This document shows positions 3,024 through 45,349 of a stretch of 45,349 nucleotides of DNA, piece after piece. The stretch lies in assembly GCF_003334405.1 (NCBI RefSeq), contig NZ_QOWM01000023.1; one strand, given 5' to 3'. This stretch comes from Escherichia coli. Lineage in GTDB: Bacteria > Pseudomonadota > Gammaproteobacteria > Enterobacterales > Enterobacteriaceae. Under the pieces are notes generated by a model. It did no database searches, had not been told where the DNA came from, and saw only the letters and a list, made by a program, of their open reading frames with translations. Within the stretch, counting starts at the first letter, position 1, and each line of letters starts with the position of its first letter. Made by a program: the position numbers and the translations under genes.

Positions 3024-4289
3024 TTACGGTTTGAAGTCCAATGGCGCGTTTTTGAACACTTCATATACTGCCTGGCTTGGTGGTTTCGGGATCTTCGCAA
3101 GTTTAGCTGCTGCCAACGCAGCCTGACAAAGTGCGGGATCGCCACCTTCAGGTTTGATATCCAGTAACATACCATCGGGTGCCAGTTTTATGCGCAGCGT
3201 ACAGGTTTTGCCTGCATAGGACGATGCGTCATAGAACTTACTTTCGATAGCAGATTTAATCTGCCCGGCATAGTTATTGATATCGGCCCCTGATGCGCCA
3301 TTGTTTTTAGTATTACCACTCCCGGCAGGCGAAGCATTGTTCCCTTTCGCCCCTCCCCCCGTTTTCGGTGCATTCTTACCAGAGCTTAGCTCACCGAAAA
3401 TATCATCTGCCTCTGCGGCCGCTTTTGCTGCAGCGGCTTTTTCAGCTGCAGCTTTTGCCGCTGCCGCTTTTTTGTCTGCGGCGGCTTTTTCTGCCGCTGC
3501 TTTCTTATCAGCTGCTGCCTTTTCAGCAGCCGCTTTTTCTGCTGCTTTTTTGTCGGCTGCAGCTTTCTCTGCTGCCGCTTTCTTATCAGCTGCAGCCTTT
3601 TCAGCAGCCGCTTTCTTCTCAGCTTCTGCTTTGGCTTTTTCAGCAGCTTCAGTTGCCGCTTTCTTTCTTGCTTCAGCTGCAGCTGCTTCTGCCGCTTCCG
3701 CTTTCTTCTTCAGTGCCGCAGCGGCTGCCTCGGCTTTTTTCTGCGCTTCGGCTGCGGCTTTGGCGGCTTCTGCTTCTGCTTTTTTCTTTGCGTCTGCAGC
3801 CGCTTTCTTCGCTGCTTCTTCCGCAGCTTTAGCATCTGCTTCGGCCTTCGCTTTAGCATCTGCCGCCGCTTTCGCTGCCGCCTCTTCAGCTTGCTTCTGC
3901 TTTAACTCGGCCTGTTTTGCGGCTTCTTCAGCCTGCTTTTTCTGCTCCTGAGCCGCTAACCGCTCTTTCTCAAGTTGCTTCAGGCGTTCCTGTTCAGCCG
4001 CTTGTTTCTCACGCAGTTCTTCAGCAGCCTGCTGTTCCTTCATCTTGCGCTGTTCATCAGAACGCTTCGCGCTTGATTCCTGGCTTTGCATGCGTTTGTA
4101 CTGCTCAACTACCGCACCTGAATCAACCATGACAGCGTCGATGGACGAACCACCGCCGCCTCCGGCTGAAGCTTCTATATTCTCATCGAACGAACTCCAG
4201 ATCAGCGCCGCAAATAAGATGACATGCAGCACTGCTGAAATAATTATCGCCCGCTTGAGCTTGTCGTTTTGTTCGGTTGCCTTTGACAC
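3024..4289 (-). CDS. tolA: Tol-Pal system protein TolA
   Basis: 421 aa: MSKATEQNDKLKRAIIISAVLHVILFAALIW membrane anchor, long Ala/Lys/Glu-rich helical domain II, Gly-rich linker and C-terminal domain III. Confidence 0.96.
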   Translation of the reverse strand: MSKATEQNDKLKRAIIISAVLHVILFAALIWSSFDENIEASAGGGGGSSIDAVMVDSGAVVEQYKRMQSQESSAKRSDEQRKMKEQQAAEELREKQAAEQERLKQLEKERLAAQEQKKQAEEAAKQAELKQKQAEEAAAKAAADAKAKAEADAKAAEEAAKKAAADAKKKAEAEAAKAAAEAQKKAEAAAAALKKKAEAAEAAAAEARKKAATEAAEKAKAEAEKKAAAEKAAADKKAAAEKAAADKKAAEKAAAEKAAADKKAAAEKAAADKKAAAAKAAAEKAAAAKAAAEADDIFGELSSGKNAPKTGGGAKGNNASPAGSGNTKNNGASGADINNYAGQIKSAIESKFYDASSYAGKTCTLRIKLAPDGMLLDIKPEGGDPALCQAALAAAKLAKIPKPPSQAVYEVFKNAPLDFKP

Positions 4290-4353
4290 TCTCGGTTTCC
4301 AAAAACTGTTCGCCTGTTACCCGCTCTCTTTCAAGCAAGGGAAACGCAGATGT

Positions 4354-4782
4354 TTAGATAGGCTGCGTCATTAAACCAACCGATTTCACACCCGCACTAT
4401 GTAACAAGTTCAGTGCTTTAATTATTTCATCGTAAGGCACATCTTTTGCGCCACCGATCAGAAAGACCGTTTTCGGGTTGGCCTTGAAACGGCTGGACAC
4501 TTCCGCCACCACCTGCTCTGGTGGTAAACGCTCCAGGCGATCTTTCTCAACCACCACGGTGTACTGACCAATACCAGACACTTCAACAATCACTGGCGGA
4601 TTATCGTTACTGCTCACCGCCTGTGATTCAGTAGCGTCTGGCAGATCGACCTCCACGCTCTGGGTGATGATGGGCGCTGTCGCCATAAAGATCAGCAACA
4701 GCACCAGCAGTACGTCCAGCAACGGTACAATGTTGATTTCGGACTTGAGATCGCGACGACCTCGTCCACGCGCTCTGGCCAT
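4354..4782 (-). CDS. tolR: Tol-Pal system protein TolR (ExbD/TolR family)
   Basis: 142 aa, MARARGRGRRDLKSEINIVPLLDVLLVLLLIFM, single TM helix. Confidence 0.95.
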   Translation of the reverse strand: MARARGRGRRDLKSEINIVPLLDVLLVLLLIFMATAPIITQSVEVDLPDATESQAVSSNDNPPVIVEVSGIGQYTVVVEKDRLERLPPEQVVAEVSSRFKANPKTVFLIGGAKDVPYDEIIKALNLLHSAGVKSVGLMTQPI

Positions 4783-32952: not shown

Positions 32953-33999
32953 ATGCCAGTTTTGCAGTGGGGAATGTTATGTGTGCTATCACTTCTCCTT
33001 TCTATTGGTTTCCTCGCGGTACATCTCCCGGCGGCGCTATTACTTGGGCCGATGATCGCCGGGATCATCTTTAGTATGCGCGGAATTACTCTGCAACTTC
33101 CCCGCTCTGCTTTTCTCGCCGCCCAGGCCATTCTTGGCTGCATGATTGCGCAAAACCTCACTGGTTCGATTCTCACCACCCTGGCCGTCAACTGGCCGAT
33201 CGTGCTTGCAATTTTACTGGTAACGCTGCTTTCCAGCGCCATTGTGGGTTGGTTATTGGTGCGCTATAGCTCATTGCCTGGAAATACCGGTGCCTGGGGC
33301 TCCTCTCCTGGCGGCGCGGCGGCAATGGTCGCTATGGCGCAAGATTACGGCGCAGATATTCGCCTGGTGGCGTTTATGCAATATCTGCGAGTGCTGTTCG
33401 TCGCGGGGGCCGCTGTTCTGGTCACCCGCATGATGCTGGGCGATAACGCTGAAGCGGTTAACCAGCATATCGTCTGGTTCCCGCCAGTGAGCATTAATCT
33501 CCTGCTTACTATTTTGCTCGCGGTCGTTGCCGGTACAGTGGGATGCCTGCTGCGTCTTCCTTCCGGCACGATGCTCATCCCGATGCTGGCGGGCGCAGTG
33601 CTCCAGTCTGGTCAGCTCATCACCATCGAACTACCGGAATGGCTGCTGGCGATGGCGTATATGGCAATTGGCTGGCGGATTGGTCTTGGTTTCGATAAAC
33701 AAATCTTACTGCGGGCACTACGCCCGCTACCGCAAATCCTGCTGTCGATTTTTGCTCTGCTGGCTATTTGTGCGGGTATGGCGTGGGGGCTGACCCGGTT
33801 TATGCACATTGATTTTATGACTGCCTACCTCGCCACCAGCCCCGGCGGGCTTGATACCGTGGCGGTCATCGCCGCAGGGAGCAATGCCGATATGGCGCTC
33901 ATTATGGCGATGCAAACCCTACGCCTGTTCAGTATTTTGCTGACAGGGCCTGCCATTGCGCGGTTTATTTCAACCTATGCGCCGAAGCGGTCGGCCTAG
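32953..33999 (+). CDS. abrB: AbrB-family putative membrane transporter (regulator of aidB expression)
   Basis: 348 aa polytopic membrane protein from [26 protein letters not shown]. The ORF track extends 26 codons upstream to 32875. Confidence 0.85.
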
Positions 34000-34787
34000 T
34001 GCTGGCAGCCAGGGCACCAGTAAAACGGGCGAGATGACAGCGTGGTTTTCTCAATGATGCTGCCACAACGTTCGCACGGTTCGCCATCTCGATGAAAAAC
34101 CTTAAAGCGAAACAGCGCCCCATGATGCTTATTCTCATCCACCTGCCCCCGCGTAGCGTAGGAAAATCGAGGAATCTCCAGTAACGCGTGTGCGAGTGCA
34201 TCCAGTTGCGCCGCATTGAGATCTTTCGCTTTATGATTTCCAGTCAACCCAACCTGCCAGAGGATCTCCACCCGCAAATAATTGCCAAGCCCAGCCAGAA
34301 ACGCCTGATCGAGCAGTAATCCAGCAAACTGACGGTTACGAAAGCGCGGCGACAATAATCGTTCTTTCACCACCTCCGGCGTCAGATTCGGATCCAGCAC
34401 ATCGGGACCAACGCGTTGTAAAAACGGATGCGTGGTCAGTTGTTCCGGGGTCAACATCTCAATATCCGAGGCGCTATAAAGCAGAATGGTTTTGTCAGCC
34501 GTTTGCAGTTTTACCCGCAATACTCGCGTGGTCTGCGGCTCTTCGCCGGTATCAACCACGCGCCAGACGCCGTAAAGCTGATTATGGCTGTAGAGCGTTA
34601 AGTCGTTGGAAAAATGAGTTAACAACGCCTTACCACGCGTTTCCACATGGGTAACGTGTTGACCGATAAGTTGTGATTGATAAGGTTTTAACTGCGGGAA
34701 GGCAAACCAGACATCAGTTAGTGGTTTGCCTTTGATCGCCGCCTCCAGGTTATCCGCTGCACGGCGGATCTCCGGGCCTTCAGGCAT
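33996..34787 (-). CDS. nei: Endonuclease VIII (Fpg/Nei-family DNA glycosylase)
   Basis: 263 aa, [21 protein letters not shown] (catalytic N-terminal Pro), C-terminal zinc finger [24 protein letters not shown]. Confidence 0.96.
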
Positions 34788-34822
34788 GGTGATATCCTTT
34801 TTTCATTCTTTATTAATCGGGG

Positions 34823-35557
34823 TTATGCTGCGACAACAATCCCCTTTTCGGCAAATGCAGAGCGTAGTCGGCGGGCGAACGCCAGTGCGTGCTCGCCGTC
34901 GCCATGCAGGCAGACCGTTTGCGCCGCGACCGTTGCCCATTCGCCGGTGATACTTTTGACTCTGCCGTGTTGCACCATCTCCAGCGTTTGCGCCAGCGCC
35001 TGTTCTTCGTTTTCAATCAACGCGCCTGACTGGCTTCGCGGCACCAGCGAGCCGTCAGCCTGATAACCGCGATCGGCAAACACTTCCTCGCGCGTTGTCA
35101 GACCATATTGCTTGCCTGCACGAATCAGCTCGCTTCCCGCCAGCCCGACGAGAATCAATGCTGGATCGCAAGCGTATACCGCTCTGGCGATGGCGTCTGC
35201 CAGTTGTGCTTCTTTCGCCGCCTGGTTGTACAACATGCCGTGCGGTTTGACATGACGCATTACGCCGCCTTGCGCACGGGCAATCGTTGCCAGCGCGCCA
35301 ATTTGATACAGCGTCTGGGCGTAAACGGTTTCTGGCGGCAGCTGCATGGCGCTGCGACCAAAATTTTCCCTGTCGGGAAAACTCGGGTGAGCGCCAATCG
35401 CGACACCATTTTTTATTGCTTCACGCACGCAAGCCTGCATGATTTGCGCATCGCCTGCATGAAATCCACAGGCAATATTGGCAGAGGAAACCAGCGTTAA
35501 TAGCTCTGCGTCGCTGGCGCAGCCTTCGCCCAGATCGGCGTTCAGGTCAATTTTCAT
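34823..35557 (-). CDS. pxpA: 5-oxoprolinase subunit A (LamB/YcsF family)
   Basis: 244 aa, [36 protein letters not shown]. Confidence 0.93.
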
Positions 35558-36479
35558 TGTGCAGCCGCCACGCTAATTGTTCAAAATAACGTTGCTGATC
35601 TTGCCGTGCTTTTAGTGCCTCTTCCAGTGAACACTGGACAAAATGAATCGGCTGACCGAGCGGAATTTGCGCCAGATGGTACATATCAGCCTCAATGATA
35701 CAGGCAATACGCGGGTAACCACCGGTGGTCTGTGCGTCGTTCATCAACACAATCGGCTGCCCGTTATGTGGCACCTGCACCACGCCCGGTAACAAACCGT
35801 GAGATAACAGTTCGCGATCGGTGGTGCGTTTTAAAATTTGCCCCTGTAAGCGATAGCCCATGCGGTTACTTTGCGAGCTAAGCTGCCAGGGCGAACGCCA
35901 GAATGCATCCTGCGAGGCGCGATCGAACTCATGATATTCCGGCCCCGGCAAGGCGCGAATGCGGTTGCCCCACAGCAGCTGTTTAACGCCCTGCGCTTCC
36001 ATAGAATCACGCTTCGATTTGCCAATCGGGAGTCGGTCACCATCCTTCAGTAAACGGCCTTCCAGCCCGCCAATCCCCACTTTGAGATCGGTGCTGCATG
36101 AGCCCATTACCGGCGGAACATCAATACCACCCGCGACCGCCAGATAACTGCGCATCCCGTGCTGCGGGCGTTTAAGCGTTAAACGCTGGCCTGCTTTCAT
36201 CGGCAATCGCCAGCCGGTCCAGACGGCATTATCATCCAGCCGCGCTTCGCAACCGGCACCCGTCAGAGCAAACCACCCATCAGTTTCGAACTCAACAGTT
36301 AACTGACCGAGCGTGATCTCCAGCGCGGGGGCATTGGCGTCATTACCCACCAGTAGGTTAGCAATGCGTAACGCGGGCATATCCAGTGCGCCGCAGTGGC
36401 TGATACCCGACTGGCGAAAACCGTGACGACCGCCATCCTGCACAGTGGTATACATGCCCGCACGAATAATCTTCAGCAT
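35547..36479 (-). CDS. pxpC: 5-oxoprolinase subunit C (allophanate hydrolase subunit 2-like)
   Basis: 310 aa, [33 protein letters not shown]; overlaps pxpA and pxpB. Confidence 0.92.
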
Positions 36480-37129
36480 ACTCCCTCCTTCTGCGGTACA
36501 AAGCGCACGCTGTCTCCCGGACGTAATAAGATGGGTTCGTCACGCGCCGGATCAAACAGGCTGAGTGAGGTATGACCAATCAACTGCCAGCCACCCGGCG
36601 TTGCCAGCGGATAAACACCAGTCTGCGGCCCGCCGATCCCGACAGAACCTGCCGGAACGAGTAAGCGCGGTTCAGCGCGCCGTGGCGTGTGTAGTTGTTC
36701 CGGCAAACTCCCGAGATACGGGAAGCCCGGTTGAAAACCTAAAAACCAGACCACGTATTCCACGGAGGAGTGCAATTCAACAACCTGTTTTTCGCTCAAC
36801 CCGCAATGCGCCGCGACCACCGCCAAATCCGGTCCGCCTGCACCACCGTAAACCACCGGAATTTCAATAAAGCGAGACTCCGGCTCCAGCGCCTCGCTCT
36901 CCTCCCACCAGCGTTGCAAACGCTCTATGGCATCCAGCGCCAGCGACTCAGGATTACGCAAAATCACCGTGATATTGTTCATGCCGGGAATGGCTTCAAC
37001 CACATTCGGCATATCCACCAGACGCTGCGCCAGTCGCCAGATCCGTTTCTGGCTAGCCAGCGTCACCGGCGGTTCCAGTTCCAGCACTACCGCCGTTTCA
37101 CCTATCAGATAACAACGCGCTCGTTGCAC
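36473..37129 (-). CDS. pxpB: 5-oxoprolinase subunit B (allophanate hydrolase subunit 1-like)
   Basis: 218 aa, [31 protein letters not shown]. Confidence 0.92.
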
Positions 37130-37151
37130 TTTCGATCCCTCTGATTATTCG

Positions 37152-37895
37152 TTATGCAGGATTAGGAATATCAATAAAGGTCACATCAAGATCGGTATTT
37201 TCATTCAGCCACTCGCTCAATGCGCGAATACCACCACGTTCAGTGGCATGGTGACCTGCAGCATAAAAATGCAATCCCTGCTCGCGGGCTGAATGAATGG
37301 TCTGTTCAGAAACTTCGCCAGTAATAAAAGCATCCACGCCAAAACGCGCGGCGCTATCGATAAAACTTTGCCCGCCGCCCGTGCACCAGGCGACGCGCTG
37401 GACCACCTCAGGTCCGGTATCGCCACACCATAACGGCTTACGTCCCAGACGCGCTTCAATCCAGGAAGCCAGCTCCAGTCCCGGCACAGGCATGGTCAGT
37501 TCGCCCCACGGCACCAACGGCTCAATTTCGCCCATGACCGTGATCCCCAGTAACGCCGCCAGCTGTGCGTTATTGCCCAGCTCAGGATGTGCGTCAAGCG
37601 GCAAATGCCAGCCATACAGGTTGATATCATTCGCCAGCAACGTTTTTAAACGGTTACGCTTCATTCCGCGAATGACCGGAGACTCTCCTTTCCAGAAGTA
37701 GCCATGATGCACAATGACCGCATCCGCGCCCAGACGCACTGCCTCATCGAGCAAAGCCTGGCTGGCGGTGACACCGGTAACAATTTTTTGCACCGTCTCT
37801 TTGCCTTCCACCTGCAAACCATTCGGCGCGTAATCACTAATCGCCGCGCTGTTCAGTTTTTCGTTAATCAGTTGTTCCAGTTCGGTGTTTTTCAT
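37152..37895 (-). CDS. ybgI: Nif3-family metal-binding protein YbgI (GTP cyclohydrolase 1 type 2 homologue)
   Basis: 247 aa, MKNTELEQLINEKLNSAAISDYAPNGLQVEGKETVQKIVTGVTASQALLDEAVRLGADAVIVHHG. Confidence 0.93.
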   Translation of the reverse strand: MKNTELEQLINEKLNSAAISDYAPNGLQVEGKETVQKIVTGVTASQALLDEAVRLGADAVIVHHGYFWKGESPVIRGMKRNRLKTLLANDINLYGWHLPLDAHPELGNNAQLAALLGITVMGEIEPLVPWGELTMPVPGLELASWIEARLGRKPLWCGDTGPEVVQRVAWCTGGGQSFIDSAARFGVDAFITGEVSEQTIHSAREQGLHFYAAGHHATERGGIRALSEWLNENTDLDVTFIDIPNPA

Positions 37896-37982
37896 CTTCG
37901 CGCCTTCCGTATTCTGATAGCTACACCGTTAACATAGCGTTACCTCGCCAGTTCGTCGATAGCCAATCTTTTGACATATTAA

Positions 37983-39647
<1,665 letters not shown>

Positions 39648-39662
39648 TAGGCCAGCACCGAT

Positions 39663-39770
39663 GCCTGATGCGACGCTTGACGCGTCTTATCAGGCCTACG
39701 TATTTCCTGCAATTTATTGAATTTGCACAAATTTGTAGGCTGGATAAGGCGTTCACGCCGCATCCGGCAT
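39663..39770. repeat. REP (BIME) palindromic units between dtpD and phr
   Basis: GCCTGATGCGACGCTTGACGCGTCTTATCAGGCCTAC and the inverted GTAGGCTGGATAAGGCGTTCACGCCGCATCCGGC, separated by an AT-rich spacer. Confidence 0.85.
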
Positions 39771-39796
39771 CTGGGCTCGATTGCCTGACGCGTCTG

Positions 39797-41215
39797 TTAT
39801 TTCCCCTTCCGCGCCGCCTCATACGCTGCCAACGTTTGTACTCTCGCTTCTTTGTGCTCGACTATCGGTTGCGGATAATCCAGCGTCACACCTGCTTTCT
39901 GCGCCCACTTCCACGGCTCATGCACCACTTTCCCTGGCACATCGCGCAGTTCCGGTAGCCACTGGCGGATAAACTCGCCCTCATGATCAAATTTCTCGCC
40001 CTGGGTTGTCGGGTTGAAAATACGAAAATACGGCGCTGCATCGGTTCCGGTTGAAGCGGCCCACTGCCAGCCACCGTTATTGGCTGCCAAATCACCATCA
40101 ATCAGCTGCGACATGAAATATCGCTCGCCTTCGCGCCAGTCGATCAATAAATCTTTCACCAGAAAACTGGCTGTAATCATCCGTAGCCTGTTATGCATCC
40201 AGCCAGTGCTGTTAAGCTGACGCATAGCGGCATCAACAATCGGGTATCCCGTTTTGCCTTCCTGCCAGGCCTGTAAATGTGCGGGATTGCTCTGCCACTG
40301 TACACGATCCGTCCAGGCAATAAATGGACGATGTTTACACAACGAGGGGTGATACGTTATCAGGTGACGGTAAAACTCGCGCCAGATCAGCTCATTAAGC
40401 CAGACACTACCGGCCCCACCGTCCAGCGCCTGCGGCTGTTCAGCCAACAAGCGATGCAAGCACTGGCGAGGCGATAACCCGCCCGTTGCCAGGCTGGCCG
40501 ACAAACGGCTGGTGCCTTCCACTGCCGGAAAATCTCGTTGTTGCTCATATTCTCCGGCACCGTTCTGGCAAAACTGGCGTAATTGCGCAATCGCCGCTTT
40601 TTCTTCCACCGGAAAATGCGCAGTATCGAAAGACTGACGAGGATAATTCAGCGTAATGGATGGCGAGGGCTCTATCGATCCGCTACTACGAACTTTTGGC
40701 GCAGCGACGCACTCCGGCATCCCTTCCCGCAGCCGTTTCAGCCAGGCATTCTTAAAAGGCGTAAAGACTTTGTACATCTCGTGATTACCGGTCATCACCG
40801 CGCCAGGCGGCAGGATCACGCTGTCATCAAATCCTTCACACACCACGTTACGCAGCGCTCTTTCAACTTCCACATCCCGCGCCCGCTCATTCACTTCATA
40901 CTGATAGTTATAAAACAGGTGGGTAACGCTGTTTTCCGCGCACACCTGTTTAACTATTTCGACACTGGCGACAAAGTCATCCACTTCACGGAACAATAAA
41001 GGAATACCTTTTTCCGCAAGCGCTATTTGTAGCCCATTCAGTTGAGCATTGATAAGTTCAGCCTGACGCGGCGACATGTTATGCGTCGCCCACTGGCGTG
41101 GTGTAGCGATATACAACGCCAGCACGCGTGCAGACGAATTGCGGCAGGCGGCAGCCAGTGCGAGATTATCGTGCAGACGTAAATCCTGGCGAAACCAGAC
41201 CAGATGGGTAGTCAT
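39797..41215 (-). CDS. phr: Deoxyribodipyrimidine photolyase
   Basis: 472 aa, MTTHLVWFRQDLRLHDNLALAAACRNSSARVLALYIATPRQW, FAD-binding C-terminal domain. Confidence 0.97.
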   Translation of the reverse strand: MTTHLVWFRQDLRLHDNLALAAACRNSSARVLALYIATPRQWATHNMSPRQAELINAQLNGLQIALAEKGIPLLFREVDDFVASVEIVKQVCAENSVTHLFYNYQYEVNERARDVEVERALRNVVCEGFDDSVILPPGAVMTGNHEMYKVFTPFKNAWLKRLREGMPECVAAPKVRSSGSIEPSPSITLNYPRQSFDTAHFPVEEKAAIAQLRQFCQNGAGEYEQQRDFPAVEGTSRLSASLATGGLSPRQCLHRLLAEQPQALDGGAGSVWLNELIWREFYRHLITYHPSLCKHRPFIAWTDRVQWQSNPAHLQAWQEGKTGYPIVDAAMRQLNSTGWMHNRLRMITASFLVKDLLIDWREGERYFMSQLIDGDLAANNGGWQWAASTGTDAAPYFRIFNPTTQGEKFDHEGEFIRQWLPELRDVPGKVVHEPWKWAQKAGVTLDYPQPIVEHKEARVQTLAAYEAARKGK

Positions 41216-41721
41216 AAAACTCCTGAATGGCGCAAGTTAATCACACGCGGCCAAAGTTCGAAATAACGCTGCCCTGAAAGCCAGGCGTCAGGATAAAGCG
41301 CCATATAGTGTTTGATACGCATCAGCGGCGCAAGAAGTGGTTGCTCGCCACGGCGATAACTGTCGATAAGCGCAGCCAGCTGCTGGCGTTCTGTGGAATC
41401 AATATGCGGGCGAAAATAACCCTGAACGTGCATCAAAACATTGGTGTGATCGCGCGGGTTGGCGGGGTGAGAAAGCAAAACAACTACGCGTTGGCGGTAC
41501 TGGTTGTAATAGTCATCCAGATTTTGCCACTGGTGAATATCAGCCACGAACGGGCCAAGTTTGCGGTACTCCGGCTGAGAATGCGCCAGAAAGACGAGTT
41601 TATAGCGGCTGTGATAATCGAGAAGCGCCCCGCGCGTTAAGCCATGTTCTTTCAGTCGATGTAACTCATGAAGGGCAAAGATACGGATTAGGGTGCTGTC
41701 ATCAAATCGTTGTAGATTCAT
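41212..41721 (-). CDS. ybgA: DUF1722-family protein YbgA
   Basis: 169 aa, MNLQRFDDSTLIRIFALHELHRLKEHGLTRGALLDYHSRYK. Its stop overlaps the phr start (ATGA). Confidence 0.9.
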   Translation of the reverse strand: MNLQRFDDSTLIRIFALHELHRLKEHGLTRGALLDYHSRYKLVFLAHSQPEYRKLGPFVADIHQWQNLDDYYNQYRQRVVVLLSHPANPRDHTNVLMHVQGYFRPHIDSTERQQLAALIDSYRRGEQPLLAPLMRIKHYMALYPDAWLSGQRYFELWPRVINLRHSGVL

Positions 41722-41868
41722 TACTGCTCCTGAGCGGTTTACAGGAGTAAGTGTAGACGTTGAGAAATGATATTTGTGAAGTTAATCCTGTTGTAGCAGG
41801 ACAAATTTACGAAAGCCTGCTCCCCGCAAGGACTGACGTCAGGTAGTTTCTAACCATAGCTGCCCTTT

Positions 41869-42630
41869 CTATTCAAACGTGAAATCAATAAGCTCATCAG
41901 GGACATCGCAAACAATATGAAGACGGGTTTCTTCTCTGCCGTGACTCTTTTCACTAATTGCGTAACTGTCATGCTTGGGATTATTTAATTCTTTCAGCGG
42001 AAATTTTTCCTCGAAGGCTTTATTTAGCCGCCCCTGGTTTCCTTTTACAGCGAATAAATAATCACCTCCCTGTTTTTGTATCTTCTCTGCAATATCTTTC
42101 TGGCAACCCATCGCATCAGTTGTGATGATTTTTCCTTTAATATCCAGCATGTTAAGAAGTTCTGGGATAGCTGTAATCTCATTAGATTTCTCATCCGTCT
42201 TGATCTGTCCGATGACCAGACTGTGCATTGTTGAGAACGCACTAATGACATGAATCGCTCCCCTGCGGCGACTCTTGTCATAAGAGTGCCGGAGCGTTTT
42301 TCCATCAATTGCAATGACGTCTTTATCATCTGAAGAATGGCAGTCACGCATCCAGTTAATAAAGCACTCGTGAAATTTTGCAGGACTGATACAGGATACA
42401 ACTCTGGCAATGGTATCGTGAACAGGAATACCATTTTCAAAATCACCATATTGCTTCAAAAAATCGGGATGTGTTTCCCCAAAATCCTCTATATCTTCCC
42501 AGCCTTCTGCACCAGAAATAACGGCACAAATAGTCAACAGTAGAATATCCGATAACTTATGTTCCATTTTCCAGGCTTGTCTGTAATCGGGGATAATAGA
42601 AATATGTCCCATCAATTTTTTAAGTTCCAT
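41869..42630 (-). mobile_element. ybfD: H-repeat-associated ISAs1-family transposase, N-terminal 253-aa fragment
   Basis: 253-aa [24 protein letters not shown]...[24 protein letters not shown]. Paralogous to the adjacent copy and ends where a full-length ISAs1 transposase would continue, so C-terminally truncated. Confidence 0.85.
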
Positions 42631-42869
42631 TTTGTTCTCCTTAATTATGTAAGGAGTATTTGATCATGTGTAAGCAATAAAAAACAGCTTTAGGTAATAA
42701 GGAATATCTCAATTTTTAAACATAAAATGCGAATTGTTTAGTACAAAAAGTGAACTTCTGATGATCTTTCCCTGTGTTTAACGCAGCCTTCTTTCTTTTC
42801 CTCTTCACCCTTAATGTCTTTGCAATCTCTTAATAAATTCAGTGCCATCTTCTTTATTCCAGATATTAT

Positions 42870-43860
42870 TTAGGCTGCGTTTCCTCTTCTTATCCGGCTG
42901 GCATCTTCATTCATTTTTACATCTAACACCCAATGAAGACTGTGCTCGATCAGCCAGTGCGCTCTGATAGCATGTGCAAATTCTTTAGCATCCATATCCT
43001 TTGATGAAATATAATATCGGATGCTTACACCTTCTGCTGATTTATCTTCTTTCTTCTGCCTGAATGACAATGCTACACAAAGCTTTTTTAATCCCTTCCA
43101 TTCGAATTCAAAATCACAAAAGTTCAGGCGTTACGTTACTGACAATATGCAAACGTGTTTCTTTTCTTCCATGACTTATCTCCTGCGTACTAAACGAATC
43201 GCCTTTATAATTAGAAAACACATTTACAGGAAATTTTTCCTCGAATGCATGATGTAATTTCCCCTGATTGCCTTTTACTGCCAGAAGATAATCTGCTTTT
43301 TTATCTTTGATCTTCGAAGCGATATCTTTCTGACAGCCCATAGCATCAATGGTTATCAAATTTTTCTTTAAATACAGTAGGTTAAGCAACTCTGGAATGG
43401 CTGTAATCTCATTACTTTTGGCTTCCGTTTTCACCTGCCCCAGTACAACACCATTTTCGTTCGAGAATGCACTCACCATATGGATTGCTCCTTTTCTTTT
43501 TCCCTTATCAAAGGAGCCTCTTATGGTCTTTCCATCTATTGCTATAATTTCACCATCAGTGATTTCATGGCACTCCTGCATCCATTCAATAAACATCTTT
43601 TCAAAGGCCAAACTGTCAATGTTACTCACAACGCGTGCAATGGTGTCATCGACCGGAATGCCATTATCAAAATCACCATATTTCTTTAGCCATTCAAGTC
43701 TTTCATGTCCAAAATCTTCAATTTCCTGCCACTCATCGGCACCTGCAATTACTGCACATACGGTGAGAAACAAAATAGCAGATAATTTATGTTTAACCTT
43801 TCCTTGTTGTCGTATATCAGGGGTCACTGAAATATAATCAAGCAAACTTTGAATACTCAC
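42870..43860 (-). pseudogene. ybfL: Frameshifted, C-terminally truncated ISAs1-family (H-repeat) transposase
   Basis: The N-terminal part (43114-43860, 248 aa, MSIQSLLDYISVTPDIRQQGK...) stops at 43114. The continuation (...[65 protein letters not shown]) lies in another frame at 42870-43070 and ends short of the family's usual C-terminus. Confidence 0.8.
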
Positions 43861-44041
43861 CTGGCGTCCTTTTTTATCTTTTTAGTTATTCCAAAGGTTA
43901 AATTTTGATCACCTGTAGGCGTTAAAGCAAAGATGAAAATCGTGATTTACATCACAATTTTCATGATCTTGCCCTGCCCCGTCCCTTGCTCTCATGTCTT
44001 TCTGTATGTATTTTATATTTTTCTCTTTCTGGTGTTGTTCA

Positions 44042-44500
44042 TTATGACCATTTACCAATCCAGTCAAAAACTTCATTTTTCAAATTGTTATCATAATAAT
44101 CAACATCATAATAGTCTCCATAATTAATTATTTTATAACTAGCCTTCTTGTTTTTATCACTAAAATACACCCGTTGTTTTGTAGCGCAGAACTCCATATT
44201 CTCCAGTTTACTAATGTTTTTTAATCGCACGCTATAAAGAATATCATTGAAAAAATTAAGATTTATATCAACCACTCCACAGTGCGTCCTGTAATTATTA
44301 ACCATTATACTTATAAAATGACCATTCCCTCTACTAATTTTTTGGTCATTAATTATTTTATAAATAATATTTTTTTCAGAAAGATATATCTCAACGCTCT
44401 TTGGTGTTTTATGTCCATAAAATACGATGTCAGAATTTGAATTGTTATCAAACCCAAGGTAAACAACAAATAAACAAAGGGTAATTAAAAAAAATGACAA
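44042..44500 (-). CDS. Candidate Rhs-tip immunity protein (AT-rich ORF with N-terminal hydrophobic segment)
   Basis: 152-codon ORF beginning 8 bp after the Rhs-tip stop, with an apparent TTG start (the ORF-track 'M'). Strongly AT-rich with Asn/Ile/Lys/Tyr-rich composition and MSFFLITLCLFVVYLGF at the N-terminus. May correspond to K-12 ybfC; start codon uncertain. Confidence 0.6.
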   Translation of the reverse strand: MSFFLITLCLFVVYLGFDNNSNSDIVFYGHKTPKSVEIYLSEKNIIYKIINDQKISRGNGHFISIMVNNYRTHCGVVDINLNFFNDILYSVRLKNISKLENMEFCATKQRVYFSDKNKKASYKIINYGDYYDVDYYDNNLKNEVFDWIGKWS

Positions 44501-44508
44501 GTTTGCCT

Positions 44509-45349
44509 CTAATAATTTGAAGCATCTGAACTCCCTTGCTTTGCTTTTATTGGATTATCTGCTTTTATACCATCTAACCCGAAGAGTTGCCCAGTGTTAT
44601 ATTTTTCAATACATGCATCGCTACATTTGGCAGAAAAATCGCCACAAGCAATACCGACAGTGTTATTTTTAAGATCCATGATTCTTTCTTTAGCTGGCTG
44701 ACCTTGTCTATCCCCTGCCGCCTCATGATTTTTACCTATCACGTCAGCTATTGTTGATCCAAATGTCTTAGTCATTCGACACATCAAGTAACAATGTCTC
44801 ATTGCATCGGCGGCCCCATTATGAGCTCCGCCAACAATAGCATCCATATCATAACCGAACTGGTAAGCACTGTTAGTAATGCTGTTTGCAGCAATCAATC
44901 CAGGTACACCAGATACGGCATAAATTAGTCCACCTGATGTCATATTCTCAATCGCATCTAACCCCATTGGGTCTATCACTTGTATGGGATTCAACGGATA
45001 CTGATACATATTCCATCCACCTCTCAACCCAATCGGGTCCGGGGTGATATACCGCCCCTGCAACGGATCGTAGTGCCGGTGACGGTTATAGTACAGCCCC
45101 GACTCCTCATCATGCTGCTGCCCTGGCAGACGGTACGGCTGGTGCAGGTGATGCGGGTTCTCCTCATTAAGCTGGTTGCCCCATTCATCATACTCCCCGC
45201 GCCACGCCGTATTGCCGTCTTCGCTGATGAGCGCCAGCGGCAGGCCCCGGTGGTCGCAGTGGTAAAAATGAACTTTTCGCGCCGGTGTGTATTCCGGCTC
45301 CACCTGTCTGGCCAGTTGCTCCACCGTCAGCCCGCACTGCGCAAGCCAC
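44509..45349 (-). CDS. Rhs-family protein C-terminal region (partial; 5' end beyond the window): end of Rhs core plus variable toxin-like tip
   Basis: Reading frame is open to the window edge (...[37 protein letters not shown]...). It contains the core-terminal motif [27 protein letters not shown] (PxxxxDPxGL), then about 149 aa of unrelated AT-rich sequence to the stop at 44509. The ORF-track 'M' at 45324 is an internal GTG. May be K-12 ybfO. Confidence 0.8.

What the first reader, a model, noticed from the sequence alone, without database searches (positions are those of the whole stretch)
44042..44500. AT-rich 152-codon ORF downstream of the Rhs tip: candidate cognate immunity gene
Seen: an ORF starts 8 bp after the tip stop on the same strand, apparently at TTG with a weak AGG upstream. 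The DNA is very AT-rich and the product is Asn/Ile/Lys/Tyr-rich with a hydrophobic N-terminus (MSFFLITLCLFVVYLGF). Established: Rhs toxin tips are followed by small, compositionally atypical immunity genes. Inference: this is the immunity partner. The start codon and true length are uncertain, and the hydrophobic N-terminus could be a membrane anchor or signal peptide, which would be informative about where the toxin acts.
Basis: partly seen in the sequence, partly recalled or inferred. Interest (0 to 1): 0.5.

Follow-up and report, generated by a model that had tools for sequence, protein, structure and literature searches.

The report
Frameshifted ydcD, probable Rhs immunity gene
The ORF is the known E. 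coli gene ydcD, most likely the membrane-anchored antidote to the Rhs toxin tip encoded just upstream, but in this window one extra T cuts it off from its real ATG start, so the "TTG start" is a by-product of a frameshift.

Summary
A 152-codon, 27% GC ORF lies on the minus strand at 44042..44500, starting at TTG 8 bp after the Rhs stop.

It is not an unknown gene and is unrelated to K-12 ybfC. It is ydcD (NCBIfam NF050020, 207 bits). Across 2.9 kb the window differs from the K-12 rhsE-ydcD module by one base, an extra T in a T-run (T8 at 44487..44494, T7 in K-12).

The native start is the ATG at 44525. It has a good Shine-Dalgarno and overlaps the Rhs stop by 17 nt. Here that frame stops after 25 codons, and RefSeq's PGAP annotation marks two other T8 copies as frameshifted pseudogenes. 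T8 occurs in 23 of 2459 complete E. coli genomes that carry the region, T7 in 2367.

The immunity reading is well supported but untested. YdcD homologues (27-60% identity) overlap the 3' end of DUF6973 toxin ORFs in five lineages. All have an N-terminal hydrophobic segment and two invariant cysteines. The tip is related to the periplasm-acting Bacteroides effector BteO and to prok-SAA "Lipocone" toxins.

The YdcD domain structure is already solved (PDB 8WJ5). This is a known gene in a damaged or mis-sequenced copy, of low to moderate interest.

The parts
44042..44500 (-). Residual ydcD reading frame (TTG 44500 to stop codon 44044..44042), 152 codons. It corresponds to residues 9-160 of the 160-aa K-12 YdcD.
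   Evidence: ORF list. NCBIfam YdcD_fam 207 bits, profile positions 9-164. Identical to K-12 ydcD apart from the T-run.
44448..44525 (-). Severed 5' end of ydcD: native ATG (44525), 25 codons ([25 protein letters not shown]) and a TGA stop. It overlaps the Rhs stop by 17 nt (44509..44525).
   Evidence: Translation. K-12 annotation gives ydcD 4036-4518 overlapping rhsE, which ends at 4052. Alignment.
44531..44537 (-). Shine-Dalgarno-like AAGGGAG, 5 nt upstream of the native ATG.
   Evidence: Read directly from the sequence.
44487..44494 (-). T8 homopolymer (A8 on the + strand), T7 in K-12. This +1 insertion breaks the ydcD frame.
   Evidence: Pairwise alignment; it is the only difference in 531 aligned bases and the only difference from the K-12 rhsE locus between 45349 and 42416. 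Exact T8 allele in 23 genomes, exact T7 allele in 2367, of 2459.
44509..44958 (-). Rhs C-terminal toxin tip (149 aa after the DPMGL motif, plus the TAG stop). Pfam DUF6973; BteO-like and prok-SAA-like all-helical domain.
44959..45349 (-). End of the Rhs core (Pfam RHS motif; DPxGL-type junction). The frame is open to the window edge, so whether the Rhs gene is full-length cannot be seen.
   Evidence: Translation. Pfam RHS PF03527, E 2.8e-17.
43933..43964 (-). Perfect 14-bp hairpin with a T-rich tail about 80 nt after the ydcD stop. It is a candidate terminator for the rhs-ydcD transcript.
   Evidence: Terminator scan: one site found, shuffles give a mean of 1.1, so it is not statistically distinctive.

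Best explanation
The ORF is ydcD, the gene that follows the RhsE-type toxin tip in E. coli.

Normal arrangement (inferred from layout). ydcD is translated from an ATG that overlaps the last 17 nt of the Rhs gene, so it is co-transcribed and probably translationally coupled with the toxin. The product is a 160-aa protein with three parts:
- a positively charged N-terminus followed by a roughly 17-residue hydrophobic helix that anchors it in the inner membrane, or acts as a signal peptide;
- a short disordered linker;
- a compact alpha+beta "double-wing" domain with an invariant cysteine pair, facing the periplasm.

Likely function (inferred). There it most likely binds and neutralises the DUF6973 tip, a BteO-like / prok-SAA-like Lipocone domain that T6SS delivers into the periplasm of neighbouring cells.

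This window (shown). One extra T in a T7 run shifts the frame. The native ATG now yields only a 25-residue peptide. The rest of the gene survives as an ORF that happens to begin at an in-frame TTG. This copy is therefore a frameshifted ydcD, unless the extra T is a sequencing error. At best it is expressed weakly from the TTG or through slippage on the T8 run, without its charged N-terminal region.
For: Identity and frameshift (shown):
- NCBIfam YdcD_fam hits at 207 and 215 bits.
- A single-base T8/T7 difference from K-12.
- The ATG frame terminates after 25 codons.
- RefSeq's PGAP annotation labels the T8 copies in A14 (identical over 681 bp) and fEC.1 (identical over the 91-nt start region) as 'frameshifted'.
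- T7 is the consensus: 2367 of 2459 genomes, against 23 with T8.

Immunity role (inferred from association):
- YdcD-family genes directly overlap the 3' end of DUF6973 ORFs in K-12, an E. coli variant (tip 82% identical, YdcD 60% identical), metagenome locus L011 (tip 47%, YdcD about 28%), Salmonella and Buttiauxella (profile E 3e-45 and 3e-47).
- The downstream gene diverges faster than the toxin domain, as expected for an immunity gene.
- Strain S40 has tssBCE-hcp-vgrG-rhs-ydcD at the same ybgA locus.

Compartment (inferred):
- An N-terminal hydrophobic segment is present in all 11 full-length homologues examined; the two 5'-incomplete sequences of alignment A2 were not examined.
- C82 and C113 are invariant.
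- The model has helix 2-26, a disordered linker and a folded domain, pLDDT 86.6.
- The domain structure is solved as 8WJ5.
- The closest solved relative of the tip, BteO, is toxic only in the periplasm and has a periplasmic immunity protein.
- Lipocone toxins are predicted to have transmembrane or lipoprotein immunity proteins.
Against: - No experiment on YdcD or this tip was found. Binding and protection are inferred only.
- More distant DUF6973-like toxins in marine contigs have no YdcD neighbour.
- One homologue sits alone, with no toxin gene nearby.
- In K-12 and several other strains the upstream Rhs gene is itself a pseudogene, so selection on ydcD may be relaxed.
- Whether the T8 is real cannot be decided from the sequence.
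Confidence: 0.72

Rival explanations
1. The extra T is a homopolymer sequencing or assembly error. The real genome has T7 and an intact 160-aa ydcD starting at the ATG at 44525.
For: It is the only difference from the K-12 rhsE-ydcD module over about 2.9 kb, and it lies in an 8-base homopolymer, the classic site of indel errors (general knowledge). The T8 allele is rare (23 of 2459) and is found at different chromosomal loci: the rhsE locus in A14, the yafV/ivy locus in fEC.1 and the ybgA locus here. That scatter fits sporadic errors or recurrent slippage. The protein database also holds many other frameshift chimeras of this AT-rich gene.
Against: Several T8 genomes look like related isolates with the allele at the same coordinate, for example GF8 and GF161 at 824957, which suggests inheritance. 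No read data are available to test this.
Confidence: 0.3
2. One reading: the 152-aa protein is made from the TTG at 44500 and still works as the immunity protein, so the frameshift is functionally rescued.
For: GAGG lies 5 nt upstream of the TTG. The ORF keeps almost the whole hydrophobic segment (mean hydropathy 2.85) and the entire folded domain. A T8 run could also allow low-level transcriptional or +1 ribosomal slippage (general knowledge, not tested).
Against: The TTG lies inside the 25-codon ORF that is translated from the stronger ATG and AAGGGAG site, so initiating ribosomes compete with elongating ones. The R6 and K8 charges that orient the anchor are lost. TTG is not in the ydcD frame in the 96% of genomes with T7, so it cannot be an evolved start. 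RefSeq's PGAP annotation treats T8 copies as pseudogenes.
Confidence: 0.15
3. YdcD is not an immunity protein. It is an unrelated small membrane or periplasmic protein, or a MotA-like double-wing DNA-binding protein, that merely travels with the Rhs element.
Against: Overlapping linkage to DUF6973 ORFs is conserved across five diverged lineages. The N-terminal membrane or signal segment and the invariant cysteine pair argue against a cytoplasmic DNA binder. Orphan immunity genes without a toxin are common in polymorphic toxin systems (general knowledge).
Confidence: 0.08

Closest known systems
E. coli K-12 ydcD (b1457; NCBIfam NF050020 'YdcD family protein'; PDB 8WJ5 'Double-wing domain of E. 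coli YdcD')
   Same: The DNA is identical apart from one T. The position is the same, immediately after the RhsE-type tip and followed by two ISAs1/H-repeat genes and the antisense yncO. Residues 26-160 are identical to the crystallised construct.
   Different: T8 instead of T7, so the native ATG is out of frame. The chromosomal place differs: next to ybgA-phr-dtpD (the K-12 rhsC locus) rather than between yncH and pptA.
BteO-BtiO, Bacteroides fragilis T6SS effector-immunity pair (PMC12541434; PDB 9UU0)
prok-SAA family of the Lipocone superfamily and its 'TM+Imm-SAA' immunity proteins (Burroughs, Nicastro and Aravind 2025, PMC12419801)
   Different: Pfam files the tip under DUF6973, not SAA. 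The paper does not mention DUF6973, YdcD or RhsE. Imm-SAA is described as having four absolutely conserved cysteines, while the YdcD family has two invariant ones.
   Same: Both are small AT-rich ORFs that follow an Rhs fragment at the ybgA-proximal Rhs locus.
   Different: No sequence similarity (BLASTP E 3.9). ybfC follows a different tip (rhsO).

Membership tests
YdcD family (NCBIfam NF050020) | Whole-protein HMM score above the curated cut-off of 65 bits | tested here: met
   Window ORF 207.1 bits, profile positions 9-164 of 164. The T7-corrected protein scores 215.3 bits, positions 1-164.
YdcD family (NCBIfam NF050020) | Intact reading frame from the family's N-terminus (the ATG that overlaps the Rhs stop) | tested here: not met
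   The ATG frame stops after 25 codons because of T8 in place of T7. RefSeq's PGAP annotation flags the T8 copies in A14 and fEC.1 as 'frameshifted'.
Cognate immunity gene of an Rhs / polymorphic toxin | Lies immediately downstream of the toxin tip, on the same strand, abutting or overlapping it | tested here: met
   17-nt overlap of the native ATG ORF with the Rhs stop. Overlaps of 17, 8, 8 and 5 nt in L005, L011, L012 and L013.
Cognate immunity gene of an Rhs / polymorphic toxin | Linkage to the same toxin domain is kept across diverged lineages, and the immunity gene diverges faster than the toxin | tested here: met
   Tip 82% with YdcD 60% (L005); tip 47% with YdcD about 28% (L011). Salmonella and Buttiauxella pairs are confirmed by profile, E 3e-45 and 3e-47. 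The link is not universal: it is absent next to the most distant DUF6973-like ORFs.
Cognate immunity gene of an Rhs / polymorphic toxin | Protein binds the toxin and protects against it | not testable with these tools
   No experiment was found in the library. Both structure-prediction jobs went on the single chains, so no complex was modelled.
Cognate immunity gene of an Rhs / polymorphic toxin | Located in the compartment where the toxin acts | tested here: inconclusive
   YdcD has an N-terminal hydrophobic helix (mean hydropathy 3.37), K/R residues before it and an invariant cysteine pair. The tip's homologue BteO acts in the periplasm. The site of action of this particular tip has not been measured.
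Bacterial lipoprotein | Lipobox [LVI][ASTVI][GAS]C at the end of the signal segment | tested here: not met
   The only Cys in the segment is in L-I-T-L-C, with Leu at position -1 (read from the sequence). Some structural relatives in AFDB are annotated as lipoproteins.
Lipocone superfamily, prok-SAA-like toxin (the upstream tip) | Helical core of 4-5 helices with the conserved polar motifs; profile similarity to family members | tested here: met
Imm-SAA immunity family (PMC12419801) | Transmembrane anchor plus an alpha-helix and four beta-strands, with four absolutely conserved cysteines | tested here: inconclusive
   The transmembrane anchor is present. Only two cysteines are invariant in the YdcD family, although some members have four.

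The most novel reading that the evidence does not exclude
YdcD defines a 'double-wing' fold family of membrane-anchored, periplasm-facing immunity proteins that neutralise an Rhs-borne BteO-like / prok-SAA-like Lipocone toxin. If so, the orphan rhsE-ydcD module of E. coli K-12, whose immunity-domain structure is already solved, is a ready genetic system. It could settle whether this toxin class is enzymatic (cleaving lipid-linked head groups, as predicted for Lipocones) or non-enzymatic (binding OmpA/Pal-type domains, as reported for BteO). A more speculative add-on, with probability about 0.05, is that the T7/T8 tract at the 5' end acts as a slippage-prone on/off switch for immunity.
Probability: 0.5. 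Interest if true: 0.5.

Novelty: already known. Interest (0 to 1): 0.27.

Why it matters
For annotating this window, the feature should be called ydcD with a frameshift (or a homopolymer sequencing error), not a new TTG-initiated gene, and it should not be compared with ybfC.

Biologically, the useful by-product is a chain of links made here:
- K-12 RhsE tip = Pfam DUF6973;
- DUF6973 is homologous to the Bacteroides T6SS effector BteO and to the prok-SAA Lipocone family;
- YdcD, whose structure is solved but whose function is unassigned, is the conserved downstream partner, with periplasmic topology signals.

Together these give a concrete and inexpensive hypothesis for a K-12 gene of unknown function. 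They also offer a tractable system for testing how Lipocone-type toxins kill. About 45% of complete E. coli genomes carry the module, often as an orphan, so it may shape strain-to-strain T6SS compatibility.

Tried and rejected
- **Pfam scan of YdcD:** no significant domain; best hits E 0.046 and 0.11.
- **PADLOC defence models:** no hit for YdcD or the tip.
- **NCBIfam for the tip:** nothing.
unrelated.
- **Literature:** 'ydcD' retrieves mostly B. subtilis ydcD (an unrelated antitoxin gene) and genome-wide lists. 'DUF6973' gives no papers. '8WJ5' appears only in a benchmarking paper. 'rhsE' plus 'immunity' gives only an in-silico EHEC study whose RhsE is a different locus.
- **Lipoprotein idea:** rejected, because there is no lipobox.
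- **The name 'dCTP deaminase' on some database entries:** treated as annotation noise.
- **Word-indexed protein search:** returned almost only E. coli copies and frameshift chimeras. The exhaustive search was needed to find homologues at about 30% identity.
- **Distant DUF6973-like ORFs in marine contigs:** these did not have YdcD neighbours.
- **Promoter scan:** no excess over shuffles, 7 sites against a mean of 5.6.

Full report
**1. The observation**

It runs 44042..44500, 152 codons, starts at TTG, and encodes MSFFLITLCLFVVYLGF.... The Rhs reading frame upstream is open to the window edge and ends ...SSDASNY-TAG at 44511..44509, leaving an 8-bp gap. GC is 27.0% (GC3 25.5%) against 50.5% for the window, and N, I, K and Y are the commonest residues. 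A GAGG lies 5 nt before the TTG. Every descriptive element is confirmed.

**2. What the ORF is**

A 681-bp query around it matches 2469 of 5426 complete E. coli genomes at 99% identity or more, almost always once per genome. The matching region is annotated 'ydcD: YdcD family protein', and the matches include K-12 MG1655. The window ORF scores 207 bits against NCBIfam NF050020 (cut-off 65), but only from profile position 9 onward.

Alignment with K-12 shows a single difference. The window has eight T's at 44487..44494 where K-12 has seven. Over the whole stretch 45349..42416 this is the only difference from the K-12 rhsE-ydcD-H-repeat region.

K-12 ydcD starts at an ATG (window 44525). It is preceded by AAGGGAG at a 5-nt spacing and overlaps the last 17 nt of the Rhs gene. 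In the window that frame reads [25 protein letters not shown] and stops. The TTG is simply the first start-type codon in the frame that the rest of the gene now occupies.

RefSeq's PGAP annotation labels the T8 copies in strains A14 and fEC.1 'frameshifted'. With 90/91-nt probes, 2367 of 2459 genomes carry the exact T7 version and 23 the exact T8 version.

Whether the eighth T is a real mutation or a homopolymer sequencing error cannot be decided from the sequence. I put the error reading at about 0.3. The gene has several other A/T runs, and the protein databases contain many frameshift chimeras of it.

**3. Locus context**

Bases 33000..41800 are 100% identical to K-12 and to several other E. 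coli strains (abrB through phr and ybgA).

In K-12, ybgA is followed by ybfD, ybfL, ybfQ, ybfC, rhsO, ybfB and rhsC. In the window, ybgA is followed by a ybfD-like H-repeat whose sequence switches in patches (42118..42415) to the K-12 ydcC/rhsE-locus type, and then by ydcD and the RhsE-type tip.

Only strain S40 in the collection has the same order (97.9% identity). There the Rhs gene sits directly after tssBCE, hcp and vgrG, which ties this Rhs class to T6SS delivery. In fEC.1 the same module is an orphan unit behind another full-length Rhs gene. In K-12 and A14 the Rhs gene is truncated.

**4. Is it the immunity gene?**

No experiment was found in the library, so the evidence is associative.

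An exhaustive HMMER search found homologues at about 30% identity outside E. coli. They align over the full length, with invariant C82, G83, F91, F92, C113, W155 and W159 and a C-terminal WIxKWS motif.

| Locus | Source | Toxin tip vs window | YdcD homologue vs K-12 | Arrangement |
|---|---|---|---|---|
| L005 | E. coli variant | 82% identical | 60% identical | 17-nt overlap |
| L011 | metagenome contig | 47% identical | about 28% identical | 8-nt overlap |
| L012 | Salmonella | DUF6973 ORF (P0099; 48% by BLASTP, 41% in alignment A4) | family profile E 3e-45 | 8-nt overlap |
| L013 | Buttiauxella | DUF6973 ORF (P0098; 51% by BLASTP, 52% in alignment A4) | family profile E 3e-47 | 5-nt overlap |

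The downstream gene diverges faster than the toxin, as expected for an immunity gene.

There are exceptions. One homologue is an orphan between truD and an eptA-like gene. The most distant DUF6973-like ORFs, from marine contigs, have other neighbours.

**5. Topology and fold of YdcD**

All 11 full-length homologues examined have a strongly hydrophobic N-terminal segment; the two 5'-incomplete sequences of the alignment were not examined. In K-12 YdcD the best 12-residue window has a mean hydropathy of 3.37. The segment is usually preceded by K/R residues, and nothing comparable occurs later in the protein.

Other PDB neighbours are weak:

In AFDB, the structural relatives beyond the family are mostly uncharacterised proteins and annotated lipoproteins of 160-200 aa. 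There is no lipobox in YdcD.

The positive-inside rule, the invariant cysteine pair and these neighbours point to an N-in, C-out anchor or a signal peptide, with the domain in the periplasm. This is inference.

**6. The toxin**

The tip (149 aa after DPMGL) matches Pfam DUF6973. Thirteen diverse homologues share N47, D51, R54, H55, C56, C60, E79, E91, D95, N98, N99, G102, C112 and C116, which form a twin C-x3-C pattern.

BteO is toxic only when sent to the periplasm. It is reported to act non-enzymatically by binding OmpA C-terminal domains, and it has an exported immunity protein (PMC12541434).

Profile-profile comparison with published prok-SAA sequences gives 97.4% probability (E 1.4e-11), with the motifs aligned. 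The paper defining the Lipocone superfamily predicts that such toxins attack lipid head groups at or outside the membrane. It also notes that their immunity proteins are all transmembrane proteins or lipoproteins, including a 'TM+Imm-SAA' family found downstream of prok-SAA and RHS genes (PMC12419801). I could not test whether YdcD is Imm-SAA.

**7. Mechanism proposed**

Shown:
- gene identity;
- the frameshift;
- the overlap with the Rhs stop;
- conserved linkage to DUF6973 toxin ORFs;
- homology of the tip to BteO and prok-SAA.

Inferred:
- co-transcription and translational coupling;
- periplasmic orientation of the YdcD domain;
- neutralisation of the tip by direct binding;
- loss or severe reduction of expression in the T8 allele.

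The TTG-initiated product would lack R6 and K8. Its start also lies inside the short ORF that is translated from the stronger ATG site. Residual expression from the TTG, or by slippage on the T8 run, is possible but unsupported.

**8. Verdict**

The feature is an already known gene with a solved structure. The modest interest lies in the functional hypothesis that links a K-12 gene of unknown function to the BteO / Lipocone toxin class.

Noticed in passing
window 42118-42415 (context 41869-43860): The ISAs1/H-repeat gene next to ybgA is a patchwork of K-12 ydcC-type and ybfD-type bases. Above 42416 the window equals the K-12 rhsE locus and below 42117 it equals the K-12 rhsC locus. The RhsE-tip/ydcD module therefore sits at the rhsC/ybgA locus through recombination within H-repeats. 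Only strain S40 of 5426 complete genomes shares this order.
   Followed up: partly
window 43942-44127 (+): An antisense small ORF, annotated 'protein YncO' in K-12, overlaps the 3' end of ydcD by 86 nt. It has no NCBIfam hit, and its start lies in one arm of the hairpin at 43933-43964.
   Followed up: partly
window 43933-43964 (-): A perfect 14-bp inverted repeat with a 4-nt loop and a T-rich tail lies about 80 nt after the ydcD stop. It could be a terminator or an element boundary. One such site is no more than the shuffled controls give.
   Followed up: no
window 44370-44376 (A7 run) and other A/T runs in ydcD: Public protein sets contain many ydcD frameshift chimeras, for example the 142-aa forms that begin MLFTLGLITIQILTSYF... 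and switch frame at the A7 run. This AT-rich gene is therefore repeatedly broken or mis-sequenced at homopolymers.
   Followed up: partly
protein P0072 (E. coli): A 261-aa protein joins a DUF6531-type N-terminus directly to the same DUF6973 tip, as if the whole Rhs core had been deleted.
   Followed up: no
L005 1003-1949: Directly after the diverged ydcD homologue comes a second orphan module: an Rhs core end with a DUF4329 tip, followed by a 100-aa ORF. This shows stacked orphan toxin-immunity units.
   Followed up: no
L010 5001-5498: A YdcD homologue (28% identity) sits alone between truD and an eptA-like gene with no toxin gene nearby. It may be an orphan immunity gene.
   Followed up: no
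database names for YdcD: Some NCBI and UniProt entries for YdcD-family proteins are named 'dCTP deaminase'. Nothing in the sequence or fold supports this, and it looks like propagated mis-annotation.
   Followed up: no
L014 and L016 (marine metagenome contigs): Distant DUF6973-like ORFs with their own N-terminal hydrophobic segment are flanked by multi-pass membrane proteins, an ankyrin-repeat protein and DUF6714 proteins instead of YdcD. They may represent a different immunity solution for the same toxin fold.
   Followed up: no
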